Origin: a virus
Lineage: Duplodnaviria > Heunggongvirae > Uroviricota > Caudoviricetes
Virus record (IMG/VR): IMGVR_UViG_3300045988_141393
Strand: one strand, 5' to 3'
DNA length: 60,346 bases
Positions 26,562 to 37,727 of the stretch are shown piece by piece. The stretch's first letter is position 1; every line of letters starts with the position of its first letter. A program made the translations under genes and the position numbers. The notes beneath the pieces are model-generated. The model had not been told where the DNA came from and did not search any database. It saw nothing but the letters and a program-made list of their open reading frames with translations.

Positions 26562-26954
26562 ATGGAACAAATCAGCAGCGCAGAAATTGCGGATATCATG
26601 ATCAGGGCTGACTGCTATCTGACAGTCACTGAAATTACCACTCTCGCCAAAGAAAAATACCCTCATCTCCATGTTTCACGAGTAAGTGTAACTAACATCA
26701 TTCGTCATTTTGTTCGTTCAAGCAGGGCAATCTGTGAGCTGGATGATCGTGTGTATCCACGAAAATACTGGCTACATGGTCTGAACGGATATCAGTTCAA
26801 GGTGCGCGGGCGCACGCCTGAATACGGTAGCTTACTGGTTAAAAACTGTAGCAGGAAATCAGTCGAACAGGCGCGAAAAGAGCAACGAGAGCTGGTGGAC
26901 ATGGCGAATAAGCTGTGGAATGCCGCCGTTAAAAAGCGTGGTGTTGCTTTATGA
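26562..26954 (+). CDS. Hypothetical protein (Lpa-like position upstream of terminase genes)
   Basis: 130 aa; position equivalent to the P1 late activator gene; synteny only. Confidence 0.3.
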   Translation: MEQISSAEIADIMIRADCYLTVTEITTLAKEKYPHLHVSRVSVTNIIRHFVRSSRAICELDDRVYPRKYWLHGLNGYQFKVRGRTPEYGSLLVKNCSRKSVEQARKEQRELVDMANKLWNAAVKKRGVAL

Positions 26955-28315
26955 GTCTGGTTAATTGGGAGGAGCACCGCGCCCGCTTTATAGCGTTGCG
27001 TGAAGAAAAAGGGATCACTGTAAAGGAATACTGTGAGGAGCATGGCCTTAGCTTCAATACAGCCAGAAAGCATCTCAATATGAAAAAAAATGAGGTGCGG
27101 TCGCAGGTAAAGACAACAAAAAAAAGCACCAAATCACCTGAAAAAAAACGGGCGGGAAGAGCAACAAAAAAGCTGGAAGAGGGTGCAGAAAAAACAAAAT
27201 TTACAGAAATTGACAATTCGCAGGGCGCAGGTTCTTTCCGAAGTATGCCGAGAAAGAAAACTTCGGATCATGAAAATAATGCAAATAATAACAATGAGAT
27301 AAAAGAATCTGTCAGGAGATCATTGCGCGAAAAAATGGCGAAAATGATCCCCGAAGAAGATAAAAGCGCCCCAAAAATTGAGGGATCTTCAGCAATGATC
27401 CCTGGCGGTGCTGTGCAACGTGCCACATTGCCCACTACGAATGTGGCTCGCGACATGATGAAGAACGGCGCAGAAGAACACCTGCGGTTAGCAATTCAAA
27501 TGGCGCAAGAGCGCGCACTTCAGTATCAAAGCATTGTTGATCAGGAGGCCGAACGTCTACAGGCGGAAATAGACGCCTTGGGCGATAAAGAGCCAGAAGG
27601 AATGCACCCTGGGCAGCGCCTTCTCGGTCTAATCAGTGACGCGGCCTACTACATGAATGATTTTATCAGTAGGTTGGCAGCTATATATCAGTCCGAACAA
27701 AAGCTGCGACAGGGGGATGAAAAGCTTCGTCAGAGCGCTCGCCAGCAAGCATTCAAAGAGGCTGAGGCCAGAGAAAAACTCGAATTAGCACGCCTACAGG
27801 CCGAACAGCGTGGCAAAGAGATTGAATATCGCATTGGCGCTGACGCACGCGCTGCCAGAGTTATCGCCGCCGCTATACGTATGCGTGAGCGCGAGGAACT
27901 GGATGATATCGGTGTTGCTGAATACATCGAGCGCCAGGGGGTCAGCGTCCCGGCTATCCTCGCGGCGCGCGCGGCGAAAGCTATCACTCTTCTCGAACCA
28001 CCTGTTTCTGACGTCAATGATGTTGATGATGAACAGCTGGACAAAGAGGCAAGGGAGTTTGCAACGCTTCAGGCTAACCATCCGCAATGGCTGGCAGAGC
28101 GCCGGGCGGATGTGGCAACCATTGTTGAAGAATTGGGGTGCGGAGATTACGACCGCAATGGCGAGCGTAAAGCTGGAGAATTCGAGGCCAACGACGAAGA
28201 GCTGGATATTGACCCTTCGGCAACGGCTGAAATTTACGGTGATTATGATGCATCTGATGCAGGGTATGACGCCGGAGATGATGATATCGCGATAGAACCG
28301 CCGGAGGATGATTAA
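26951..28315 (+). CDS. Terminase small subunit-like protein (PacA-like)
   Basis: 454 aa; N-terminal HTH-like region, very acidic C-terminus, immediately upstream of ATPase-bearing terminase; contains GATC cluster. Confidence 0.4.
   Translation: MSLVNWEEHRARFIALREEKGITVKEYCEEHGLSFNTARKHLNMKKNEVRSQVKTTKKSTKSPEKKRAGRATKKLEEGAEKTKFTEIDNSQGAGSFRSMPRKKTSDHENNANNNNEIKESVRRSLREKMAKMIPEEDKSAPKIEGSSAMIPGGAVQRATLPTTNVARDMMKNGAEEHLRLAIQMAQERALQYQSIVDQEAERLQAEIDALGDKEPEGMHPGQRLLGLISDAAYYMNDFISRLAAIYQSEQKLRQGDEKLRQSARQQAFKEAEAREKLELARLQAEQRGKEIEYRIGADARAARVIAAAIRMREREELDDIGVAEYIERQGVSVPAILAARAAKAITLLEPPVSDVNDVDDEQLDKEAREFATLQANHPQWLAERRADVATIVEELGCGDYDRNGERKAGEFEANDEELDIDPSATAEIYGDYDASDAGYDAGDDDIAIEPPEDD
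27266..27544. repeat. GATC-rich cluster, candidate pac site
   Basis: Six GATC in about 280 bp (27266, 27318, 27346, 27384, 27397, 27539), several as TGATCC/TGATCA, inside the PacA-like gene. Confidence 0.35.
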
Positions 28316-29823
28316 TGGCTGGCGGGCGCAAGATTAAATGCGTCACCAGCGATCCACGCTGGCGCGATATGGTAATCAAATACCGCTACAACTTTACCCA
28401 GGCTGTTGTCGATATTTTTGGGATGTTCCCCTCCCACCAGCAGCAGCAGATCATTCAGTCAGTGCAGGAAACGGGGAGTAGGACGACCGTCACGTCCGGA
28501 CACGGAACGGGGAAGTCGTCCCTTACCGCGATGTTGCTGTTGATTTTTATGATCCTGTTCCCCGATGCCCGTGTCATCATTGTTGCTAACAAGATAGGCC
28601 AGGTAAAAACAGGCGTATTCAAATACGTTAAACAGTATTGGGCGAATGCAGTTAAGCGTCATGGGTGGTTGCAGACCTATTTTGTCCTCTCTGACACCAT
28701 GTTTTATGAGCGCTCCCGTAAGGGGATTTGGGAAGTTCTCTGCAAAGGTTATCGACTCGGCAACGAAGAAGCGCTGGCGGGGGAACACGCGGCACATTTG
28801 CTTCTAATTCTGGACGAAGCATCTGGTATATCTGATAAGGCGATCGGCGTAATGACCGGTGCTCTTACTGAAGAAGATAACCGGATGTTGATGCTATCCC
28901 AGCCAACAAGGCCAAGTGGTTATTTCTACGATTCGCACCATTCTCAAGCAAAAACCCCAGACAACCCGAAAGGGATCTGGACAGCAATTGTTCTTAACTC
29001 GGAAGAATCACCGTTCGTCACACCACAATTCATCAAGCAGAAGCTTCTGGAATATGGCGGGCGCGATTCTATTGAGTACATGGTCAAGGTGCTTGGTCAG
29101 TTCCCACGAGAAATTAACGGCTATTTGCTTGGTCGTGATGAATGCGATCGCGCTGCTCGCCGCAAGGTGTTGTTGGAGAAAAACTGGGGATGGGTGGCAA
29201 CGGCTGACGTTGGTAATGGGCGAGATAAGTCGGTCCTCAACATCTGCAAAGTATCTGGTCACAGGGATAAGCGGCGCGTTGTTAACTTTAAGGTAATGGA
29301 GATGCCTGGCACTATGGACCCATTGGCCTTTGCTGACTTCATATATAACGAATGTACGCCGGAAAAATACCCGAATATAACAATCGCGGTTGATGCTGAT
29401 GGTTTTGGTTCTGATACGTGTGCGCAGTTGGTGCGTCGTGGTGCGAACCCGGTACGTATTCGGTGGGGAAAACCCATGTTTGCGAACAAAGACAGGGAGC
29501 GATTTGTTAATCAGCGTGCCTACGCAAATATTATGGCGCGAGATGCCATAAAGTCAGGGCGTATGCGGATAGACAGTGACCCTAAAACGGCAGAGCAAGC
29601 GTCAAAAATCCCCTTTTTACTGAATGAAGAAGGGAAAATGGCGATGATGCGCAAAGAGCACATGCGGCAAAAGCTAAACATCAAATCGCCTGACCGATGG
29701 GATACCTACTGCTTCACTATGCTGGTGGACTATGTGCCTGCTAATGAAGATATTGGTGCCGAAATGGCAACTTTCCGAGATCAGGTTCTGGCGGATATCG
29801 AAATGCCGGATCTGGATATATAA
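28315..29823 (+). CDS. Terminase large subunit (PacB-like ATPase-nuclease)
   Basis: 502 aa; Walker A SGHGTGKSS, Walker B HLLLILDEASG, C-terminal acidic AVDADG nuclease-like motif. Confidence 0.55.
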   Translation: MAGGRKIKCVTSDPRWRDMVIKYRYNFTQAVVDIFGMFPSHQQQQIIQSVQETGSRTTVTSGHGTGKSSLTAMLLLIFMILFPDARVIIVANKIGQVKTGVFKYVKQYWANAVKRHGWLQTYFVLSDTMFYERSRKGIWEVLCKGYRLGNEEALAGEHAAHLLLILDEASGISDKAIGVMTGALTEEDNRMLMLSQPTRPSGYFYDSHHSQAKTPDNPKGIWTAIVLNSEESPFVTPQFIKQKLLEYGGRDSIEYMVKVLGQFPREINGYLLGRDECDRAARRKVLLEKNWGWVATADVGNGRDKSVLNICKVSGHRDKRRVVNFKVMEMPGTMDPLAFADFIYNECTPEKYPNITIAVDADGFGSDTCAQLVRRGANPVRIRWGKPMFANKDRERFVNQRAYANIMARDAIKSGRMRIDSDPKTAEQASKIPFLLNEEGKMAMMRKEHMRQKLNIKSPDRWDTYCFTMLVDYVPANEDIGAEMATFRDQVLADIEMPDLDI

Positions 29824-29824
29824 A

Positions 29825-29841
29825 GCCCCGCGATGCGGGGC
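29825..29841. terminator. Hairpin between convergent genes
   Basis: GCCCCGC-gat-GCGGGGC. Confidence 0.35.
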
Positions 29842-29850
29842 CGGTTGTGA

Positions 29851-30888
29851 TTACCAGAGCTTCGCGGCGTACTGCGTTTGGGGGAATGTGTATCCGTAAC
29901 GTTCTTCGATTGCTTTGCCGTATTTTTTACGAGCTTCATTCAGTTTAATGCCGGTCAGGTCGTCTCCAGAGGCCATCATTACGTCTAACAATTCCAGATC
30001 CATTTTATCCAGCCTTGCCATTGCTTCACGTGATGTACGTATCTTACGTTCAATGATATGGCGAATAGCCGGATCGGCATCCTCCAGCATCTTAGCGGAT
30101 TTCTGCTTAAGGCTTTCATTGCGAATATCGATGTTCCTTAAGATGTACGACTTCGCAACGTAGCTTGGCTGGTGTTTTTCCAGGTCACGAACACGATATA
30201 AGTTAAAATCGCCGAGAAGGCTGCAAGGTACCGATTCGACGCCAGAATAAATTGTAATGCTCCGGCGTTCACCAACATTATTGACAACGGGGATCGTTGT
30301 CTTCGGTAGTCTTGCGAAAACCAATGCGCCATGTGCGCCAACTCTAAAGCGAGAAAGGGCATTGCTGCCTTCGATGTTTGTTGTCAGCACAACATCTGTA
30401 TATGCCTCTTTACGCGCCCGGTAGATCTCGCCTTCAGGCTCAGCTTCAAAGAAGCGCTGTTCTTCTTCAAGAGCACCTACGATTTGAGAAAAAACCCTAT
30501 TTTTCAGGCTTTTCTTTATGATTTTGTCGTATTTTTTTAGCAATTGTTCACGTGTAAATGTACGTGTTGTTGTAGCGCTTTGCACAACGACATGCGTGCT
30601 TTGATTGGTGTCCTCAATGATGAATGGGATCGGAGAATATACAGACTCAACAATGTTCGACGCTTTGCCGTCGGCATCGCGGCACATGTCAACGAAGGCT
30701 TTCCATTCAGCAAGACATTTTTCAGCTTCTTCTAATATGTTTTGGTCATGCGTTAATGCAACATGGCGGAATTCCTCGCCAGCATAACTGGTATCATGGA
30801 AAACAGAGTTTGCGACCACCAGCTCTTTCCACCGTTCAGCGGTTTGCAGGAACCGTTTGTACTCTTTCTCGATCGACTTCTTACTCAT
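29851..30888 (-). CDS. Hypothetical protein in the immunity-repressor (C1) position
   Basis: 345 aa, AGGA RBS; lies between terminase genes and lox-Cre as c1 does in P1; recurrent operator-like motif 20 bp upstream of its start; identity not verified. Confidence 0.3.
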   Translation of the reverse strand: MSKKSIEKEYKRFLQTAERWKELVVANSVFHDTSYAGEEFRHVALTHDQNILEEAEKCLAEWKAFVDMCRDADGKASNIVESVYSPIPFIIEDTNQSTHVVVQSATTTRTFTREQLLKKYDKIIKKSLKNRVFSQIVGALEEEQRFFEAEPEGEIYRARKEAYTDVVLTTNIEGSNALSRFRVGAHGALVFARLPKTTIPVVNNVGERRSITIYSGVESVPCSLLGDFNLYRVRDLEKHQPSYVAKSYILRNIDIRNESLKQKSAKMLEDADPAIRHIIERKIRTSREAMARLDKMDLELLDVMMASGDDLTGIKLNEARKKYGKAIEERYGYTFPQTQYAAKLW

Positions 30889-30906
30889 TATTCCTACTCG
30901 ATTTAG

Positions 30907-30916
30907 TTTTCTAACA
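30907..30916. promoter_or_regulatory. Recurrent TTTCTAACA motif in promoter region of C1-position gene
   Basis: ttttctaaca immediately upstream of the minus-strand start at 30888. Confidence 0.4.
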
Positions 30917-31097
30917 TAAAATTACTATGACAAATTTATGTCGAATAACAGAGTGAGTAAAGGATCGAACTGTGATTTTTTGTCATCAATTTTAGAAAAC
31001 CAACCGTAGAAACCACACTTCGCAAATTAAAGACCATGAAGGCAACGTGTTACTGGTCATCATCAATCTATGATGGATTTAAAAAAATCGGCATTTT

Positions 31098-31131
31098 ATA
31101 ACTTTAAATAATTGGCATTATTTAAAGTTAA
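31098..31131. other. lox-like site (13-bp inverted repeats flanking 8-bp spacer)
   Basis: ATAACTTTAAATA-ATTGGCAT-TATTTAAAGTTAA; arms match 12/13; shares ATAACTT...ATA with loxP arms; 150 bp upstream of cre-like gene. Confidence 0.55.
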
Positions 31132-31282
31132 GCTATAATCATGGGTGGATGATCAGTGTTGACATCACTGAAAATACGTGCCTCGAATCAAAGGTTTGAA
31201 TCTTGAAAATTAACTTATAGCTACCCTGTCATTTTTATATTTTTCGCGTAGCGTCATCTGTATATAGAGGTTAAATAGTTTC

Positions 31283-32311
31283 ATGAGTGAATTAATTATC
31301 TCTGGCAGTTCCGGTGGTTTTCTGCGCAACATTGGCAAAGAGTACCAGGAAGCCGCAGAAAACTTTATGCGGTTCATGAATGACCAGGGAGCTTATGCGC
31401 CGAATACTCTGCGCGACCTCCGTTTGGTGTTTCATTCCTGGGCGCGCTGGTGTCACGCTCGCCAGCTTGCCTGGTTTCCGATCTCACCAGAAATGGCCCG
31501 CGAGTATTTTCTTCAGCTGCATGATGCCGATCTGGCTTCGACCACCATTGATAAGCACTACGCCATGCTGAACATGCTGCTTTCGCATTGTGGCCTTCCG
31601 CCACTTTCGGATGATAAAAGTGTTTCTCTGGCTATGCGGCGCATCCGGCGCGAAGCGGCAACTGAAAAAGGCGAACGAACAGGCCAGGCTATACCGCTGC
31701 GGTGGGACGATCTGAAACTGCTCGACGTCCTGTTGTCCAGGTCAGAACGGCTGGTGGATCTGCGCAACCGGGCTTTTCTCTTTGTTGCATACAATACGCT
31801 GATGCGTATGTCGGAAATCTCGCGTATTCGTGTAGGAGATCTGGACCAAACAGGTGACACTGTCACGCTACATATTTCACACACGAAGACAATAACGACC
31901 GCCGCCGGGCTTGATAAGGTGCTTTCCCGTCGCACTACCGCTGTGCTGAATGACTGGCTGGATGTTTCCGGGCTTCGCGAACATCCTGACGCAGTGCTGT
32001 TCCCGCCGATACACCGTAGCAATAAGGCCAGGATCACGACAACGCCCCTTACTGCACCTGCAATGGAGAAAATATTCAGCGACGCCTGGGTGTTGCTGAA
32101 TAAAAGAGATGCTACGCCAAACAAAGGAAGATACCGGACGTGGACCGGGCATAGTGCACGCGTCGGGGCCGCTATTGATATGGCTGGAAAGCAGGTGTCT
32201 ATGGTGGAGATCATGCAGGAAGGAACCTGGAAGAAACCGGAAACACTTATGCGGTATCTTCGCCGTGGCGGCGTGTCTGTGGGGGCTAATAGCCGCCTGA
32301 TGGATTCGTAA
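31283..32311 (+). CDS. cre: Cre-like tyrosine site-specific recombinase
   Basis: 342 aa (P1 Cre is 343); blocks WARWCHARQLAWFP, RNRAFLFVAYNTLMRMSEISRIRVGDLD, WTGHSARVGAAIDMA, IMQEGTWKKPETLMRYLR parallel Cre. Confidence 0.8.
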   Translation: MSELIISGSSGGFLRNIGKEYQEAAENFMRFMNDQGAYAPNTLRDLRLVFHSWARWCHARQLAWFPISPEMAREYFLQLHDADLASTTIDKHYAMLNMLLSHCGLPPLSDDKSVSLAMRRIRREAATEKGERTGQAIPLRWDDLKLLDVLLSRSERLVDLRNRAFLFVAYNTLMRMSEISRIRVGDLDQTGDTVTLHISHTKTITTAAGLDKVLSRRTTAVLNDWLDVSGLREHPDAVLFPPIHRSNKARITTTPLTAPAMEKIFSDAWVLLNKRDATPNKGRYRTWTGHSARVGAAIDMAGKQVSMVEIMQEGTWKKPETLMRYLRRGGVSVGANSRLMDS

Positions 32312-32384
32312 ATTAAATTTCTAACACATCTTTTTAGATTAACGTCTTTGCTGTAAAGTACCCTCGCCTATTTAGGAGGGTGCT

Positions 32385-32729
32385 TTGCAGAGTCAAATCA
32401 CGGAATCAAGACGCTTCAAGGTGGATGGTTACACCGTAACCTTCGCCGCTGGTGTTAAGAACAGTCATGCTGTCGTTGTGTTCGGCATCATGACCGGGCT
32501 TGAGGCCGTCCCTGTGTTTACCCTCGAAAAAAACTGGCGAAATCTGGAGGAAGCAGAAAGCTACGTCCGGAAAGTAACCATCATTGCCGCCGAAAAACTC
32601 CTGGCCCACTATCAGGAAAATTATCGCACTATGGTCGAGAAGATTAATCTCGCTTTCACTCGCCCCACTACCGGCTTTATTGCACCGGATACTAATGCAG
32701 GTCGATATCCGGCAAGGGGGCGTCGGTGA
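32385..32729 (+). CDS. Hypothetical protein
   Basis: 114 aa ORF. Confidence 0.3.
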   Translation: MQSQITESRRFKVDGYTVTFAAGVKNSHAVVVFGIMTGLEAVPVFTLEKNWRNLEEAESYVRKVTIIAAEKLLAHYQENYRTMVEKINLAFTRPTTGFIAPDTNAGRYPARGRR

Positions 32730-33202
32730 AAACTTATTACCCATCTCTGAATTGTTACCCGTCTTCCTATCCAGAATTGTCCGGGAAGCTGTTAGCTCTA
32801 TTAGCTAAAGCACCTACGGAATGGTTTAAGCCAGTCGTTATCAATCCACACTTCCTGGATTACGGATCTGTTCGCACTCGTAACGAACTCAAAAACCTAC
32901 TGGCGCATGGATTCATTCGACACCGTGCCGGGAAAGGCTATCAGTTAGCGATTGCGCCAGAAGAGGCCGTGCGGCTATTCGCATATCGTGACAGCCAGAC
33001 AAAAGCTCGGGTAATAGCTCAAATACTTCATAACGGCAGCACCTATGCCCGCCAGTTTGGCGGCGACACGTCGCAGTTCTTGCGGGCGGTGCGATCGCTG
33101 GAGGAGCAAGGAGTTATTGAAAGTTCCTGTCTTCCTGTTCCTACCGTTCCACATATCAAACGTCGGGTTTACACCTTCACGCAGAGAGCTAAAAAACAAT
33201 GA
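32726..33202 (+). CDS. Hypothetical protein
   Basis: 158 aa, overlapping stop/start with neighbours. Confidence 0.3.
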   Translation: MKTYYPSLNCYPSSYPELSGKLLALLAKAPTEWFKPVVINPHFLDYGSVRTRNELKNLLAHGFIRHRAGKGYQLAIAPEEAVRLFAYRDSQTKARVIAQILHNGSTYARQFGGDTSQFLRAVRSLEEQGVIESSCLPVPTVPHIKRRVYTFTQRAKKQ

Positions 33203-33693
33203 TTTACGTAAAAGTGAAACGCCTACATCCGGCAGCAAAACTTCCAGCTTATGCCACCTCCGGATCGGCGGCGATGGATTTTGAGGCTGTTGAAATAAAA
33301 CCATGCGTCGATAGCAATGGTGCAATTTCCTCAAGCTGGTGGGTGTATACCGGACTGGCTATGGAGATCCCGCCCGGCTGGTGTCTGAAACTCTATCCGC
33401 GATCAGGATTGGGCTGCAAAAAACATACTCGCCTGGCTAACTGCGTAGGAATTATCGACTCCGATTATCGCGGCGAAATCATGGCAAAACTGATTACTGA
33501 TCCAGGCGGGGAAGGCGTTTGTCTCAAGCCTGGAATGGCTGTCATGCAAGGAATTTTTGAGCGTGTTGAACAAGTCTCACTAGTCGAGGTTGAGGAACTC
33601 AACGAAACGGAGCGTGGTGCTGGTGGCTTTGGTAGCACATCGGAAGGCCGCGTTGAAATCAAGCGTACACCGCTTCAGTACGCAAAGTTTTAA
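33199..33693 (+). CDS. dut: dUTPase
   Basis: 164 aa; motifs AMDF, RSGL, IIDSDYRGE, RGAGGFGSTS. Confidence 0.65.
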   Translation: MIYVKVKRLHPAAKLPAYATSGSAAMDFEAVEIKPCVDSNGAISSSWWVYTGLAMEIPPGWCLKLYPRSGLGCKKHTRLANCVGIIDSDYRGEIMAKLITDPGGEGVCLKPGMAVMQGIFERVEQVSLVEVEELNETERGAGGFGSTSEGRVEIKRTPLQYAKF

Positions 33694-33707
33694 GTAGAGG
33701 AAGGATT

Positions 33708-34370
33708 ATGGCCAGCACTTTTCAGGTGTTCCCCAAATACAAATGCCACAGCATCATTCGGGCATCGAAAATCAAAGATATTGTTATTGTCGGCAAAGCT
33801 TATGCGCCAATTTTTGGCAGCATCGAAGTCGTGGAGCCAAAAGGAATGACGCTTCGTGTTGATGGTGTGTTCTTGGAAAAGTTCCGACCGCAAATAGGAG
33901 GATATCTCGTCACTGCTGAAAATGGTTATCTGGTCTATGTGCCAGAGAAAGCATTTGAAAAATGCTATAGCCGGGTTAACGACGCCTCCGAAAATGGGGT
34001 ATCGCTCAGCATTGAAGGTCACAATGGGGTGACATTCATTACAGCCAGGGACGTAACTATTTCTGCTGGCGGTATCGCTACTCTACAAGAAGAAATCGAC
34101 CTTGAAGCAGCCGACTTTTCTGACGCGCTGATGTGGATGAAGGATGGCAAGAAAGTTGCTCGACGCGGGTGGAACGGCGAAGACCAATTCTGCTGGCTGG
34201 TTCCTGAAGGACAGTACCCGGCACGAATGGAAGCCATTAAGGGATATTTCCCCGGCGACCTCGTTCCGTATGGTGCTTATTTCGCCTTAAAAAATGCACA
34301 AGGTGTAGTTGTTCCGTGGGTGCCTTCAGTTGGCGACCTGCTGGCCTGTGACTGGTTTGTTGTGGAGTGA
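33708..34370 (+). CDS. Protein with C-terminal DUF2829-like domain (Tad2-type candidate)
   Basis: 220 aa; ALMWMKDGKKVARRGWNG ... LLACDWFVVE. Confidence 0.45.
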   Translation: MASTFQVFPKYKCHSIIRASKIKDIVIVGKAYAPIFGSIEVVEPKGMTLRVDGVFLEKFRPQIGGYLVTAENGYLVYVPEKAFEKCYSRVNDASENGVSLSIEGHNGVTFITARDVTISAGGIATLQEEIDLEAADFSDALMWMKDGKKVARRGWNGEDQFCWLVPEGQYPARMEAIKGYFPGDLVPYGAYFALKNAQGVVVPWVPSVGDLLACDWFVVE

Positions 34371-34376
34371 TTTGAC

Positions 34377-35144
34377 ATGGAAAGCACTAAAACAATTCAA
34401 TACCGCTTGCGTAATGGCCTGCTGGTGGCTGTTAACGCCGACATGTCACTGCCGTTTGACACGATTGAACGCACTATCATGACGTATCTCGGCTTTAATG
34501 AAGAGCTGAATGAAGAGCATGGCGTAGCTATATGGAGTGATGCAGACAGCGGCGTTCGTCGTTACATCACCGCCAGGGGCAAAGACTACTCTCTGGAAGA
34601 ACTGTTTGCCCTTGCGCAGTCTTTCGAATGTGTAGCATTAGACCTGTTTAATGATCCTGCTATAGCGCAACGACTTATACGCGAGCTTGGGCTATCCGTT
34701 ACACCAATTATCTTTAAAAATGGCAGCCTGACTGGCACATGGCGCGTAGAACGCATCTCAAACTACCTTCCATATAACCGACAGTTAAATGGAGTAATCT
34801 CCGGCGTTAATCAGCCCGTAGCGTGTGAAAATGTAAACCTGGTTGTCGCTGTTTTGGCAACCGCATGTCGTGTTATCGGTTTGGCTAAACAGGCATTTAT
34901 TCATTTCCCAAATGGTGCAGAAGGTAGCGCAGAGATTATCGCGTGTGATTTCGAATTTACCTGGATGCTACGCGAATATCTGGACCAAACAGTATTCCGT
35001 GCCGAAGAACTGGATATGTATATCACGTCAACGATTCCAGACGATGTGCGAGCTGAAGCAATCGCTACAGCCAGGGCGAAATGCCGTGCGGCGATTGCAG
35101 AACAGGCCAAAGAAGAAGTTAAGGAAGTGGCAGATGGCGACTAA
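34377..35144 (+). CDS. Hypothetical protein
   Basis: 255 aa ORF. Confidence 0.35.
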   Translation: MESTKTIQYRLRNGLLVAVNADMSLPFDTIERTIMTYLGFNEELNEEHGVAIWSDADSGVRRYITARGKDYSLEELFALAQSFECVALDLFNDPAIAQRLIRELGLSVTPIIFKNGSLTGTWRVERISNYLPYNRQLNGVISGVNQPVACENVNLVVAVLATACRVIGLAKQAFIHFPNGAEGSAEIIACDFEFTWMLREYLDQTVFRAEELDMYITSTIPDDVRAEAIATARAKCRAAIAEQAKEEVKEVADGD

Positions 35145-36228
35145 GAGCAATATTTATAAAGATCCGCGCTGGCTGTCGCTGGTGGAGAAATATAAAGACA
35201 ATTGGGTACTGGCAGCAAAAGAATTGTTTGATATTGATTTAAGCCACCAGCAACAACAAATTGTTGAAGCTATACAGCCCAACAATGCAAAAGCTACTGT
35301 CACCACTCCGTATGGGATCGGACGACCGCAAGTGCTTGCTGTTATTAGTACCCTTTATACGATTATGTATCCTGATTCCCGGACAGTAATTGTTTATCCA
35401 AAATCAAATGCTTGCAAAAGAGGAATTGTTGCATATGTGTGGCAATGTTGGGAGGCATTACTGAAAAAACAACCTTTTATCATTGAGTATTTTAAGGTCG
35501 GTGATAGCGGTCTGATGTTCAATGAATTTTGGGGAATGTGCTTTTGTAACTACCGCCTTAACTATGAAGATAGCATTGCAGGTCACTACGCCGACCATCT
35601 TTTATTCATTATTGTGGATTCCGCACATATCAGCGATCGGGCATACAGCATTGTGTGGGCAAGCATGACTAGTGGTGATTCACGCATATTGCTCACTTCA
35701 ATTCCGTCACCAGAGGAAATAGGCTTTTTTTATGATTCACATCATGGACGTGCTTTAGCTGAAGATAATACGAGTGGTGTATATAAAGCCATTAAGCTGA
35801 GTGCGGAGGATTCACCATTTATTACCCAAGAATATCTTGATCATTTTGCCGAAAGGTATGGCGGGCGAAATAGTGATGACTATCGTCGTATGATTCTTGG
35901 TGAGTTCCCTGGTATTAGGGAGGCTGTTCTTGAATCAGATATGCCGAAGACAATGCGCTTTTCGATGCCTGATGGTAGTGAATGGACAATGCCATTACGA
36001 GTGATAGCCCGGCATCATGCGCAGCACCACGCCAAAAAACATGGCGTCACGACATTAGAATGGTTGAAATCGCACACTATTCCACTCTTCACTGCAGATC
36101 ACAATGCTATCGTTGAGTGGGCAAAAACAATTCCGTGGGAGCATGTCGCTGAATATGCTCACATGCTAAAACCGCCGAAAGACAGGCACGAAATTAGCTG
36201 GCTGACAGCCGAAAAAATCATTGAATGA
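35134..36228 (+). CDS. Terminase-large-subunit paralogue with degenerate ATPase motifs
   Basis: 364 aa from ATG 35134; shares DPRW, SHQQQQI, FYDSHH, SPF-T, YGGR, LG-FP blocks with 28315..29823 but Walker A is TPYGIGRPQ and Walker B is LLFIIVDSAH; no nuclease-like C-terminus. Confidence 0.45.
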   Translation: MATKSNIYKDPRWLSLVEKYKDNWVLAAKELFDIDLSHQQQQIVEAIQPNNAKATVTTPYGIGRPQVLAVISTLYTIMYPDSRTVIVYPKSNACKRGIVAYVWQCWEALLKKQPFIIEYFKVGDSGLMFNEFWGMCFCNYRLNYEDSIAGHYADHLLFIIVDSAHISDRAYSIVWASMTSGDSRILLTSIPSPEEIGFFYDSHHGRALAEDNTSGVYKAIKLSAEDSPFITQEYLDHFAERYGGRNSDDYRRMILGEFPGIREAVLESDMPKTMRFSMPDGSEWTMPLRVIARHHAQHHAKKHGVTTLEWLKSHTIPLFTADHNAIVEWAKTIPWEHVAEYAHMLKPPKDRHEISWLTAEKIIE

Positions 36229-36235
36229 TATCAAC

Positions 36236-36266
36236 AAAAAGCCCGCCTGGTCTGGCGGGCTTCTTT
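36236..36266. terminator. Bidirectional terminator between convergent genes
   Basis: AAGCCCGCC-tggtc-TGGCGGGCTT followed by T-rich run. Confidence 0.5.
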
Positions 36267-36273
36267 ATGCGCC

Positions 36274-36663
36274 TTAAATCACAGGTCTATAATCAAACTC
36301 CCCACTTCGGGCATCATTGATGACATGAGTGATCACACCAAAAACAGCATTACTGCCCGTGTATCCATCGTCATCTACTGGTAACGCCTCTTTCTTCCCG
36401 GTGCTTAAATCCTCCAGGTGCTGGCGCGGATACTTCCTGTATCTCTTTATGCGATATTCACCCTCCATAGCGCATATAAGCAGTGAACCATCAACCGGAG
36501 TAAGTGAGGAATCAACCACCAGCAAAGCACCTTGCAATATTCCCTCACGGTGATGGCTGTCTGCCGCCCGCATGAAGTAGGTCGCGGAAGGATGTCTGAT
36601 TAGTTGCTGATCAAGAGAAATGCGGCTCTCTGCATAATCCGCCGCAGGAGAAGGGAAGCCCAT
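36274..36663 (-). CDS. humD: UmuD'-like protein (HumD-like, pre-truncated UmuD homologue)
   Basis: 129 aa starting MGFPSPAADY...; aligns to UmuD from residue about 24 onward; LexA box directly upstream. Confidence 0.7.
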   Translation of the reverse strand: MGFPSPAADYAESRISLDQQLIRHPSATYFMRAADSHHREGILQGALLVVDSSLTPVDGSLLICAMEGEYRIKRYRKYPRQHLEDLSTGKKEALPVDDDGYTGSNAVFGVITHVINDARSGEFDYRPVI

Positions 36664-36681
36664 AGCGTTTTACCTCAATGA

Positions 36682-36701
36682 TACTGTTTATTCATACAGT
36701 A
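36682..36701. promoter_or_regulatory. LexA (SOS) box
   Basis: TACTGTTTATTCATACAGTA = CTGT-N8-ACAG, 19 bp upstream of humD-like start. Confidence 0.6.
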
Positions 36702-36786
36702 TACATTGAAAAGGCATAGTTTGTGAAAGCGGGGTTTGTAGGCGCGCCACGCTGGGGGCTAATCACATTTCTCCCCCATCTTGCCG

Positions 36787-37038
36787 TTATTTTTTTGGTG
36801 CATCCTCGTTCTGATACACCGGATCGCTCCCTTTTGGCAACTGGAGGCTTAACTGCCGGTAGTGCCGTAGCCGTTCCATGAAATAGGCGCGCAGGTTTTC
36901 CGGTTGCTCACGGGCCACCTGCTCTGCAATCACAGGTATATTCAGCCGTTCTTTGTAAGCAACGCCGCTGGCGGCAAGGTCTACGTTCACCTTGTCTCGC
37001 TCTTCCTGGCTTTTAGCTGCTATATTTCGATCTGACAC
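36787..37038 (-). CDS. Hypothetical small protein
   Basis: 83 aa ORF upstream of humD-like gene. Confidence 0.35.
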
Positions 37039-37070
37039 AAGAAACCTCCCGGAGTTAGTGGATCAGGCAC

Positions 37071-37421
37071 ATGCACAATAACGTTCTCAATGTTAGCCGT
37101 TCAATTCAGACAATCAGAGACTGCACCAGTGTGGTGGCATCAATCCCATTGCGAAATAGCATAGACGAACTGCAAATTCGGGTATTGAATCTGAATCAGG
37201 CTAACAAGCAATTGCGCTTTATTTTGACGCTGAAAAGTGAAACAGAGGGGATAAAGCACAGCGTAAAAGTGTTTTCTGAGGCCATTCTGCTTAATGGGAA
37301 GCTCCGGCATCTGGTAAGGCCAGAACGTCAATATCCTGACGTCCTGGGTCGTGAAAAATACCTTCTTTCCGAAGTTCAAGATAAGGTGATCGATTTCGTT
37401 AAATCTCATCCCCTGCATTGA
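37071..37421 (+). CDS. Hypothetical protein (strand ambiguous; antisense alternative 37140..37418)
   Basis: 116 aa ATG-initiated ORF; fully overlapped by a 92-aa antisense ORF. Confidence 0.25.
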   Translation: MHNNVLNVSRSIQTIRDCTSVVASIPLRNSIDELQIRVLNLNQANKQLRFILTLKSETEGIKHSVKVFSEAILLNGKLRHLVRPERQYPDVLGREKYLLSEVQDKVIDFVKSHPLH

Positions 37422-37460
37422 GAGCAGGTGTTCCTCTTTGTAACAAAGATGCCACCAGCA

Positions 37461-37727
37461 TTATGGTTCGCATTTCCAAATGGTGTTCTGAACGCCCGTA
37501 CCGGGCGCGAGATGGGGATTAGCGTTCGCGCTATGCTGATATACGGCTTTAGACTTCCCATATTGCTGACAGGCTTTATCTGCGGTTTTTTGCAGACTAT
37601 CCAGCCCATACCAGCCATCTGACTGGATGCTTACCTTTTCACCGTCGTTGTATTGCACCATTGCACACCCAGACACTGCCAGCATCGCACCGACAATAAC
37701 GCTTTTCCATAAAACTCTATGCAACAT
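37461..37727 (-). CDS. Small lipoprotein
   Basis: About 88 aa from ATG 37727; signal peptide with lipobox LAVSGC; GAGGGGA RBS. Confidence 0.4.
   Translation of the reverse strand: MLHRVLWKSVIVGAMLAVSGCAMVQYNDGEKVSIQSDGWYGLDSLQKTADKACQQYGKSKAVYQHSANANPHLAPGTGVQNTIWKCEP

What the first reader, a model, noticed from the sequence alone, without database searches (positions are those of the whole stretch)
31098..32311. lox-like site and Cre-like recombinase
A 34-bp element ATAACTTTAAATA-ATTGGCAT-TATTTAAAGTTAA (13-bp arms matching 12/13, 8-bp asymmetric spacer) lies 150 bp upstream of a 342-aa recombinase with Cre-like sequence blocks. Its arms share ATAACTT and terminal ATA with loxP but differ in the centre, so this would be a heterospecific lox variant.
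Basis: partly seen in the sequence, partly recalled or inferred. Interest (0 to 1): 0.5.

Follow-up and report, generated by a model that had tools for sequence, protein, structure and literature searches.

The report
Known Dre recombinase and rox site
This is the already described Dre recombinase and its rox target site from a D6-like phage-plasmid of E. coli, a Cre/loxP cousin that has been a routine genome-engineering tool since 2004, so the finding is real but ordinary.

Summary
Window 31099-31130 is a perfect inverted repeat, TAACTTTAAATAAT-TGGC-ATTATTTAAAGTTA. It lies 152 bp upstream of a 342-aa tyrosine recombinase gene (31283-32311). The site matches the annotated rox site of phage D6 at 32/32 positions. 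The protein is 341/342 identical to D6 Dre (E302G), with 26 of 27 nucleotide differences synonymous. It aligns end to end with P1 Cre at 40.5% identity. All catalytic residues are kept (R175, E178, K202, H290, R293, W316, Y325). So are the three residues published as switching Cre from loxP to rox (R44, P259, K263).

The context is the P1/D6 module pacA-pacB-c1-rox-dre. About 112 PLSDB plasmids and 155 of 5,426 complete E. coli genomes carry a Dre-type copy. By analogy with P1, its likely role is circularising injected DNA and resolving plasmid dimers.

A side observation is more interesting. Sequence relatedness among D6-like plasmids switches at rox: the window is D6-type to the left and another lineage to the right, with the break bounded to 31108-31143. 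Natural arm and core variants of rox also exist.

The parts
31099..31130 (.). rox, the 32-bp recombination target of Dre (14-bp arm, 4-bp core, 14-bp arm)
   Evidence: 32/32 identical to the misc_recomb 'rox' feature of phage D6 AY753669 4909-4940. It is the only such palindrome in the window. Both arms are invariant in relatives whose Dre is only 70-90% identical.
31099..31112 (+). left (c1-side) 14-bp arm TAACTTTAAATAAT, binding site for one Dre monomer
   Evidence: Perfect reverse complement of 31117-31130. A natural variant with A to G at 31107 occurs in L013/L014 and is linked to a divergent c1-side flank.
31113..31116 (+). asymmetric 4-bp core TGGC, which gives the site its direction; it sits within the 8-bp loxP-equivalent crossover region 31111-31118 (ATTGGCAT)
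   Evidence: PMC4777119 maps positions 1-8 and shows that positions 2 and 7 govern compatibility. Natural cores TAGT, TAGC and GGGG are seen in relatives.
31117..31130 (+). right (dre-side) 14-bp arm ATTATTTAAAGTTA
   Evidence: invariant in every relative examined.
31112..31139 (+). sigma-70 promoter-like site TTGGCA-16-TATAAT (11/12) pointing at dre, with its -35 hexamer over the rox core; function not shown
   Evidence: it is the only match of 11/12 or better in the window, but shuffles give a mean of 1.1, so the count is not above chance. The -10 hexamer is kept in 7 of 8 relatives.
31267..31270 (+). GAGG, a possible ribosome-binding site 12 nt before the dre ATG
   Evidence: Read directly from the sequence. 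The surrounding TATAGAGGT is invariant in 8 relatives.
31283..32311 (+). dre, a Cre-family tyrosine site-specific recombinase of 342 aa (natural allele E302G)
   Evidence: 341/342 identical to D6 Dre AAV84949, with 27 nt differences of which 26 are synonymous. Best PDB matches are all Cre, E = 9e-69. Pfam Phage_integrase, E = 6e-16. Catalytic residues R175, E178, K202, H290, R293, W316, Y325 and specificity residues R44, P259, K263 are all present. The exact allele occurs on 6 metagenome contigs.
29851..30888 (-). c1 repressor gene, the left neighbour of rox (context)
   Evidence: 346/346 positions (345 aa plus the stop codon) identical to D6 C1. The D6 annotation calls it 'phage repressor protein'. 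PF27008 Phage_P7_repressor_C1 is on record for the same protein.
26951..29823 (+). pacA (26951-28315) and pacB (28315-29823) terminase genes (context); the window's densest GATC cluster, at about 27231-27430 inside pacA, is the candidate pac site
   Evidence: D6 annotation; ORFs; GATC cluster. The cluster lies about 3.7-3.85 kb before rox, compared with 3,994 bp from pac to lox in P1.

Best explanation
This is the Dre/rox site-specific recombination system of a D6-like P1-type phage-plasmid of E. coli.

Mechanism. By homology to Cre, and from published Dre experiments, one Dre monomer binds each 14-bp arm of rox. Two rox sites are synapsed by a Dre tetramer. Tyr325, assisted by R175, K202, H290, R293 and W316, cleaves and exchanges one pair of strands and then the other, through a Holliday intermediate within the central ATTGGCAT region. 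No cofactors or energy are needed. The asymmetric core TGGC fixes the outcome: excision or resolution between direct repeats, inversion between inverted repeats.

Specificity. Preference for rox over loxP comes from the three arm positions that differ (TAA versus CGT). These are read by R44, P259 and K263, the counterparts of Cre K43, R259 and G263.

Role in the element. This part is inferred from the conserved P1 architecture pacA-pacB-c1-site-recombinase. The system would (i) circularise injected, terminally redundant linear DNA when rox lies in the redundancy, and (ii) resolve plasmid-prophage dimers so that each daughter cell inherits a copy.

The single difference from D6 Dre, E302G, is probably neutral.
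For: Identity to D6:
- The site is 32/32 identical to the annotated D6 rox, and the protein is 341/342 identical to D6 Dre.

Cre-family features:
- End-to-end alignment to Cre structures, E = 9e-69.
- 40.5% identity to P1 Cre with all catalytic residues conserved, at the same positions given in PMC4777119.
- The rox-type specificity residues R44, P259 and K263 are present and invariant, even in a relative only 70% identical that keeps both arms exactly. Their role is published in PMC4957104 and PMC7438526.

Selection:
- Against D6, 27 nt changes give 1 aa change. Against L006, 209 nt changes give 35 aa changes, none at contact or catalytic positions.

Context:
- Same gene order as D6 and P1, with a similar distance from the candidate pac site to the recombination site. 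The site has the same orientation relative to the recombinase gene, with CAT at the gene-proximal end of the central 8 bp in both loxP and rox.
- The P1 record annotates cre as 'cyclization recombinase'. Multimer resolution by the Cre homologue of D6-like plasmids is stated in PMC6799933 and, for P1, in PMC10879196.
- 154 of 159 copies in complete E. coli genomes are on plasmids.
- rox sits next to a Dre gene in 20 of 23 IMG/VR contigs. The other three loci are too short to tell.
Against: - Nothing here measures activity of this allele. G302 is found only in this window and its metagenome twins among about 30 relatives examined, where the residue is E or D. A loss or change of activity cannot be formally excluded, although Cre has R at the aligned position, so the position tolerates different residues.
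- The biological roles, cyclisation and dimer resolution, are inferred from P1. As far as I could read, they have not been shown for D6-like elements. The primary papers by Sauer & McDermott (2004) and Gilcrease & Casjens (2018) are not held in the library.
Confidence: 0.95

Rival explanations
1. A previously undescribed heterospecific lox variant with its own new Cre-like enzyme, which is the novelty the first reader implied.
For: The arms share ATAACTT and the terminal ATA with loxP but differ at three central positions, and the central region differs as well.
Against: The site and enzyme are identical, or 341/342 identical, to the published and annotated D6 rox and Dre.
Confidence: 0.01
2. 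The recombinase is a phage integrase, and the palindrome is the core of an attP used to integrate the element into the host chromosome.
For: Pfam and PHROGs label it generically as 'integrase'. Five of 159 copies in complete E. coli genomes lie on chromosomes. PMC10879196 speculates that P1-like elements may integrate through Cre-lox.
Against: 154 of 159 copies are on plasmids of about 90 kb. The site is a simple symmetric 32-bp target with no arm-type sites, and no second copy or half-site exists in the window. The closest characterised relatives, Cre and Dre, act on simple sites without accessory factors.
Confidence: 0.03
3. This copy is a disabled or altered-specificity allele because of E302G.
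For: G302 is private to this lineage. All other relatives examined have E or D at this position.
Against: The aligned Cre residue is R301, so the position varies across the family (E, D, G and R), and it is not among the published contact or catalytic residues. The rox site next to the gene is unchanged. The allele occurs on 6 independent contigs from at least 2 samples. The nearest plasmid (ETEC1732) differs from the window's dre by this one nucleotide only.
Confidence: 0.04
4. The palindrome is mainly a transcription signal, either a promoter/operator for dre or a terminator for c1, and is not used for recombination in this element.
For: An 11/12 sigma-70 match has its -35 hexamer in the core and its -10 hexamer 3 bp after the right arm, pointing at dre. 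A look-alike hairpin in a Clostridia MAG has no recombinase nearby and resembles a terminator.
Against: D6 Dre is reported to recombine this very sequence in bacteria, and also in mammalian cells. The promoter count is not above chance. A regulatory role would add to recombination, not replace it.
Confidence: 0.02

Closest known systems
Dre recombinase / rox site of Escherichia phage D6 (GenBank AY753669, MF356679; Sauer & McDermott 2004)
   Same: The rox site is 32/32 identical and the protein 341/342 identical. The rox-to-ATG distance is the same (152 bp), the neighbours are the same (pacA, pacB, c1 | rox | dre, orf2, orf3, dut), and the c1 protein is identical.
   Different: One residue differs (E302G). 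There are 27 nucleotide differences in dre. Identity to D6 is about 97% to the right of rox and about 100% to the left, so the dre side comes from a different D6-like lineage. Further downstream, D6's pdcA/doc/phd region is replaced by other genes.
Cre recombinase / loxP of phage P1
   Same: Same family and same catalytic residues, with an end-to-end alignment at 40.5% identity. The genomic position (after pacAB and c1) and the site orientation are the same. The target is a simple site of 32-34 bp. The inferred roles, cyclisation and dimer resolution, are the same.
   Different: Each arm differs at 3 of 13 positions (TAA versus CGT). The asymmetric core is 4 bp instead of 8 bp. The specificity residues are R44, P259 and K263 instead of K43, R259 and G263. 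No cross-recombination is reported (PMC7438526). P1 has coi/imcBA and cra between c1 and cre, which are missing here.
Panto/pox (Pantoea sp. aB), Vika/vox, VCre/VloxP, Nigri/nox: other Cre-like recombination systems
   Same: All are simple-site Cre-type tyrosine recombinases found beside their own palindromic targets. Panto and Dre cross-recombine rox and pox, and their arms differ by one nucleotide (PMC4957104).
   Different: According to that paper, Panto is only about 52% identical to Dre. I did not compare these sequences here.

Membership tests
Dre/rox (phage D6 type) | The target site is the 32-bp rox sequence TAACTTTAAATAAT-TGGC/GCCA-ATTATTTAAAGTTA | tested here: met
   32/32 identical to the annotated rox of AY753669.
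Dre/rox (phage D6 type) | The protein is orthologous to Dre (AAV84949) | tested here: met
   341/342 identical and the same length; the only change is E302G.
Dre/rox (phage D6 type) | rox-selective specificity residues are present at the positions of Cre 43, 259 and 263 (R, P, K) | tested here: met
   R44, P259 and K263 are present and invariant in all relatives. The residue list comes from PMC4957104 and PMC7438526.
Dre/rox (phage D6 type) | Recombines rox x rox without accessory factors and does not recombine loxP | not testable with these tools
   Published for D6 Dre (PMC4777119, PMC4957104, PMC7438526). Not measured for the G302 allele.
Dre/rox (phage D6 type) | Resides in a D6-like P1-type phage-plasmid, between c1 and orf2, downstream of pacAB | tested here: met
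   Gene order and identities. The nearest records are E. coli and Salmonella plasmids of about 90 kb.
Cre-type tyrosine site-specific recombinases | Catalytic residues R-E-K-H-R-W-Y (Cre R173, E176, K201, H289, R292, W315, Y324) | tested here: met
   R175, E178, K202, H290, R293, W316 and Y325 by global alignment with P1 Cre.
Cre-type tyrosine site-specific recombinases | Two-domain architecture that aligns over the whole length with Cre | tested here: met
   phmmer aligns query 22-341 with Cre 21-340, E = 9e-69. Pfam Phage_integrase plus a sub-threshold SAM-like N-terminal domain. This is sequence evidence only; no structure was predicted.
loxP site | 13-bp arms ATAACTTCGTATA and 8-bp spacer ATGTATGC/GCATACAT | tested here: not met
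   The arms differ at positions 8-10 (TAA versus CGT), and the central 8 bp is ATTGGCAT versus GCATACAT in the gene direction. The site is lox-like but is not loxP.
XerC/XerD chromosome-dimer resolvases | NCBIfam equivalog score above the cutoff | tested here: not met
   Scores of 21-28 bits against cutoffs of 279-335.

The most novel reading that the evidence does not exclude
rox may act in nature as a hinge for exchanging modules between co-resident, heteroimmune D6-like phage-plasmids. Dre-mediated intermolecular crossover in the rox core would join the pac-c1 (immunity) side of one lineage to the dre side of another. The window would be such a recombinant.

The evidence is as follows. The window is about 100% D6-type to the left of rox. 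To the right it is about 100% identical to a different lineage (L013). The switch is bounded to 31108-31143. Half-site variants travel with their own flank. Natural core variants (TAGT, TAGC, GGGG) could then define which elements can exchange with which.

Homologous recombination, or simple divergence of the immunity module, could give the same pattern.
Probability: 0.35. Interest if true: 0.35.

Novelty: already known. Interest (0 to 1): 0.1.

Why it matters
As a discovery it matters little. Dre/rox has been known since 2004 and is a standard partner of Cre/loxP in mouse, zebrafish, worm and bacterial genetics.

This analysis adds three minor things:
- A natural Dre allele (E302G) beside an unchanged rox.
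- Natural support for the published specificity code: both arms and residues R44, P259 and K263 stay fixed while the protein diverges to 70% identity.
- A small catalogue of natural rox variants: one left-arm variant and three core variants. Some of them may be ready-made heterotypic sites for engineering.

If the mosaic break at rox is confirmed at population scale, it would show a Cre-type site acting as a natural cassette-exchange point in phage-plasmid evolution.

Tried and rejected
- **Primary papers not held.** Sauer & McDermott 2004 (doi and PMC534624) and Gilcrease & Casjens 2018 (PMC5800970) could not be read. I relied on the GenBank annotation and on later open-access papers that restate their findings.
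- **Extra rox copies or half-sites in the window.** None found with up to 3 mismatches for the full site or up to 2 for an arm.
- **Chromosomal copies as evidence of integration.** Five places are reported, but none appeared in the 60-row spread listing. Not pursued.
- **Promoter overlapping rox.** It is the only match of 11/12 or better in 60 kb, but shuffles yield 1.1 on average, so it is not significant by count. I kept it as a hypothesis only.
- **Dam-regulated promoter as in P1 cre.** The GATC at 31150 is absent from D6 and from some relatives, so it is not a conserved feature.
- **The single genome-contig hit, in a Clostridia MAG.** It is an AT-rich hairpin flanked by A and T runs with no Dre nearby. 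I take it as a chance look-alike or a terminator.
- **XerC/D membership.** Rejected on score.
- **Structure prediction.** Not run, because sequence identity to Dre and Cre already settles the fold.

Full report
**Observation**

A 342-aa ORF runs 31283-32311 on the + strand.

Read without the loxP template, the element is a perfect 14-bp inverted repeat. The arms are TAACTTTAAATAAT (31099-31112) and ATTATTTAAAGTTA (31117-31130), around the asymmetric core TGGC at 31113-31116. The conserved unit is therefore 32 bp.

The repeat is the only perfect short-spacer inverted repeat with arms of 12 bp or more in the 60-kb window, against a mean of 0.07 in dinucleotide-preserving shuffles. There is no second copy and no isolated half-site.

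**What it is**

Megablast of 31000-32400 against phage records finds Escherichia phage D6 at 96.8% identity. The features under the match are annotated 'dre: tyrosine recombinase' and 'region of crossover (rox) site for Dre recombinase'.

- The window's 31099-31130 is identical at 32/32 positions to the D6 rox feature (AY753669 4909-4940).
- The protein differs from D6 Dre at one position, E302G. There are 27 nucleotide differences in 1,029, so 26 are synonymous.
- The distance from rox to the ATG is 152 bp in the window, in D6 and in six plasmid relatives.

Against solved structures, every hit is P1 Cre or an engineered Cre. The best has E = 9e-69 and aligns residues 22-341 with Cre 21-340. 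Global identity to P1 Cre is 40.5%.

The Cre catalytic residues R173, E176, K201, H289, R292, W315 and Y324 correspond to R175, E178, K202, H290, R293, W316 and Y325 here. PMC4777119 gives the same numbers for Dre.

Pfam gives only the generic Phage_integrase family. XerC/XerD models score far below their cutoffs.

**Literature**

PMC4777119 states that rox has 14-bp inverted repeats and a 4-bp asymmetric spacer, citing Sauer & McDermott 2004. It also shows that the bases flanking the 4-bp core, positions 2 and 7 of a loxP-style 8-bp region, control compatibility. This supports an 8-bp functional crossover region with cleavage at positions equivalent to loxP.

PMC7438526 states that Cre and Dre share 41% identity, that their half-sites differ at 3 of 13 bp, and that neither enzyme acts on the other's site.

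PMC4957104 reports that swapping Cre K43, R259 and G263 for the Dre residues (R, P, K) confers rox selectivity.

I confirmed that the window's protein has R44, P259 and K263. It also has A258, E262, S266, R285, H244, R245, D45 and K91, the residues named in the Dre/rox model.

**Natural variation as a test**

I fetched plasmid relatives whose Dre is 307-341/342 identical, and IMG/VR contigs that include one with Dre only 239/342 (70%) identical.

- Both 14-bp arms are exact in all of them except L013 and L014. The plasmids were fetched by sequence similarity, so their arms are an independent test. The IMG/VR contigs, including the 70% relative, were found by searching for the exact arms.
- None of the 54 variable protein columns falls on a catalytic or listed contact position.
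- Position 302 is E in most, D in the 70% relative, G here, and R in Cre. It is a variable position, and G302 is most likely neutral. That is an inference.
- The G302 allele is real and not a sequencing error. The exact protein is encoded on 6 metagenome contigs, including ENA ERZ27256602 and JGI 3300029885. E. coli plasmid NZ_CP122828 differs from the window's dre by that single nucleotide.

**Context and likely role**

The gene order is pacA (26951-28315), pacB (28315-29823), c1 on the minus strand (29851-30888), rox, dre, two small ORFs, then dut. This is the D6 order. It is also the P1 order, except that P1 has coi/imcBA and cra in addition.

The densest GATC cluster in the window lies inside pacA at about 27231-27430. 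The Dam-methylated pac site of P1 also lies inside pacA. The cluster is about 3.7-3.85 kb before rox, compared with 3,994 bp from pac to lox in P1.

Read in the direction of the recombinase gene, loxP is ...GCATACAT... and rox is ...ATTGGCAT.... Both end in CAT, so the two sites have the same polarity relative to their genes.

Dre-type copies occur in 155 of 5,426 complete E. coli genomes, and 154 of the 159 places are on plasmids. They also occur in 192 PLSDB plasmids, about 112 of them in the close D6-like group.

From this conserved architecture, and from the established roles of P1 Cre, I infer two roles here: circularisation of injected terminally redundant DNA, and dimer resolution of the plasmid prophage. 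The P1 roles rest on the 'cyclization recombinase' annotation and on multimer resolution as cited in PMC10879196 and PMC6799933. The chemistry is shown for D6 Dre in the literature. The biological roles in D6-like elements are inferred.

**Side findings**

1. *Relatedness switches at rox.*
   - Against D6, the window is 99-100% identical per 100-bp bin to the left of rox, but only 92-100% (about 97%) to the right.
   - Against plasmid L013 (NZ_CP069886), it is 74-95% identical to the left, and 51% in the last 100 bp before rox. To the right it is 98-100% identical for 2.8 kb.
   - Base by base, the exchange point is bounded by 31107 and 31144, an interval that contains the rox core.
   - L013 and L014 carry the arm variant TAACTTTAGATAAT on the side of their divergent flank, as expected if crossover occurs in the core.
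   - The best PLSDB matches for the 499 bp to the left and the 499 bp to the right are different sets of plasmids.
   - In a spread sample, 24 of 40 records begin to match within 18 bp of the left edge of rox.
   - This fits Dre-mediated exchange between co-resident elements. Homologous recombination or divergence of the immunity module cannot be excluded.

2. *Natural core variants exist.* They are TAGT (S. Typhi pK91), TAGC (with the 70% Dre) and GGGG.

3. *A promoter-like site overlaps rox.* An 11/12 sigma-70 match, TTGGCA-16-TATAAT at 31112-31139, has its -35 hexamer in the rox core and points at dre. This suggests autoregulation. However, a match of 11/12 or better is expected about once per shuffled window, so it remains a hypothesis.

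**Verdict**

The object is the already known Dre/rox system in a D6-like phage-plasmid, carrying a probably neutral natural allele. Novelty: already known. Interest: low.

Noticed in passing
window 31108-31143 (junction); flanks 29500-31098 and 31131-34000; compared with L001, L013, L014: Sequence relatedness switches at rox. To the left the window is about 100% D6-type and only 51-95% like plasmid NZ_CP069886. To the right it is 98-100% like that plasmid and about 97% like D6. The best PLSDB matches for the two flanks are different plasmid sets. This suggests natural exchange at the rox core, though homologous recombination is not excluded.
   Followed up: partly
L013 and L014 near position 1605 (rox left arm); L007 (S. 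Typhi pK91); L020 3706-3737; L027 12405-12436: Natural rox variants exist: left arm TAACTTTAGATAAT paired with a wild-type right arm, and cores TAGT, TAGC and GGGG instead of TGGC. They may be natural heterotypic sites. L020's Dre is only 70% identical, yet it keeps both arms and all specificity residues.
   Followed up: partly
window 31112-31139 (+): A near-consensus sigma-70 promoter-like site, TTGGCA-16-TATAAT, has its -35 hexamer on the rox core and points at dre. Bound Dre would occlude it, which could give autoregulation. It is the only match of 11/12 or better in the window, but the count is not above chance. An invariant TTGACA at about 31159-31164 is also conserved in all 8 relatives.
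   Followed up: partly
window 33708-34370 (+): A 220-aa ORF just after dut carries a Tad2-like (Thoeris anti-defence 2, DUF2829) domain at residues 136-219, Pfam E = 2.7e-22. The D6 counterpart is shorter: 147 aa, annotated as matching only the C-terminal half of an SJ46 protein.
   Followed up: no
window 35134-36228 (+): A 364-aa paralogue of the large terminase PacB. It is 37% identical over 258 aa of the ATPase domain (E = 3e-61), but the Walker A motif is degenerate (GHGTGKS becomes PYGIGRP) and the Walker B motif is altered. It belongs to phrog_5902, of unknown function. D6 aligns to only 54% of the surrounding 4 kb (33600-37600), so this region differs from D6's. It may be a catalytically dead terminase-like accessory protein.
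   Followed up: partly
L038 6381-6412 (OZ007016.1, uncultured Clostridia MAG chromosome): Both rox arms match exactly around a TAAT core, flanked by A6 and T6 runs, with no Dre homologue within 8 kb. It is most likely a chance AT-rich hairpin or terminator and not a recombination site.
   Followed up: partly
window 27231-27430 (inside pacA): The densest GATC cluster in the window, with 5 sites in 170 bp. It is positioned like the Dam-regulated pac site of P1 and is a candidate pac site about 3.7-3.85 kb before rox.
   Followed up: no
E. coli complete genomes: Five of 159 Dre-type copies are reported on chromosomes and not on plasmids. I did not locate them, so I cannot say whether they are integrated phage-plasmids and whether their junctions involve rox.
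   Followed up: no
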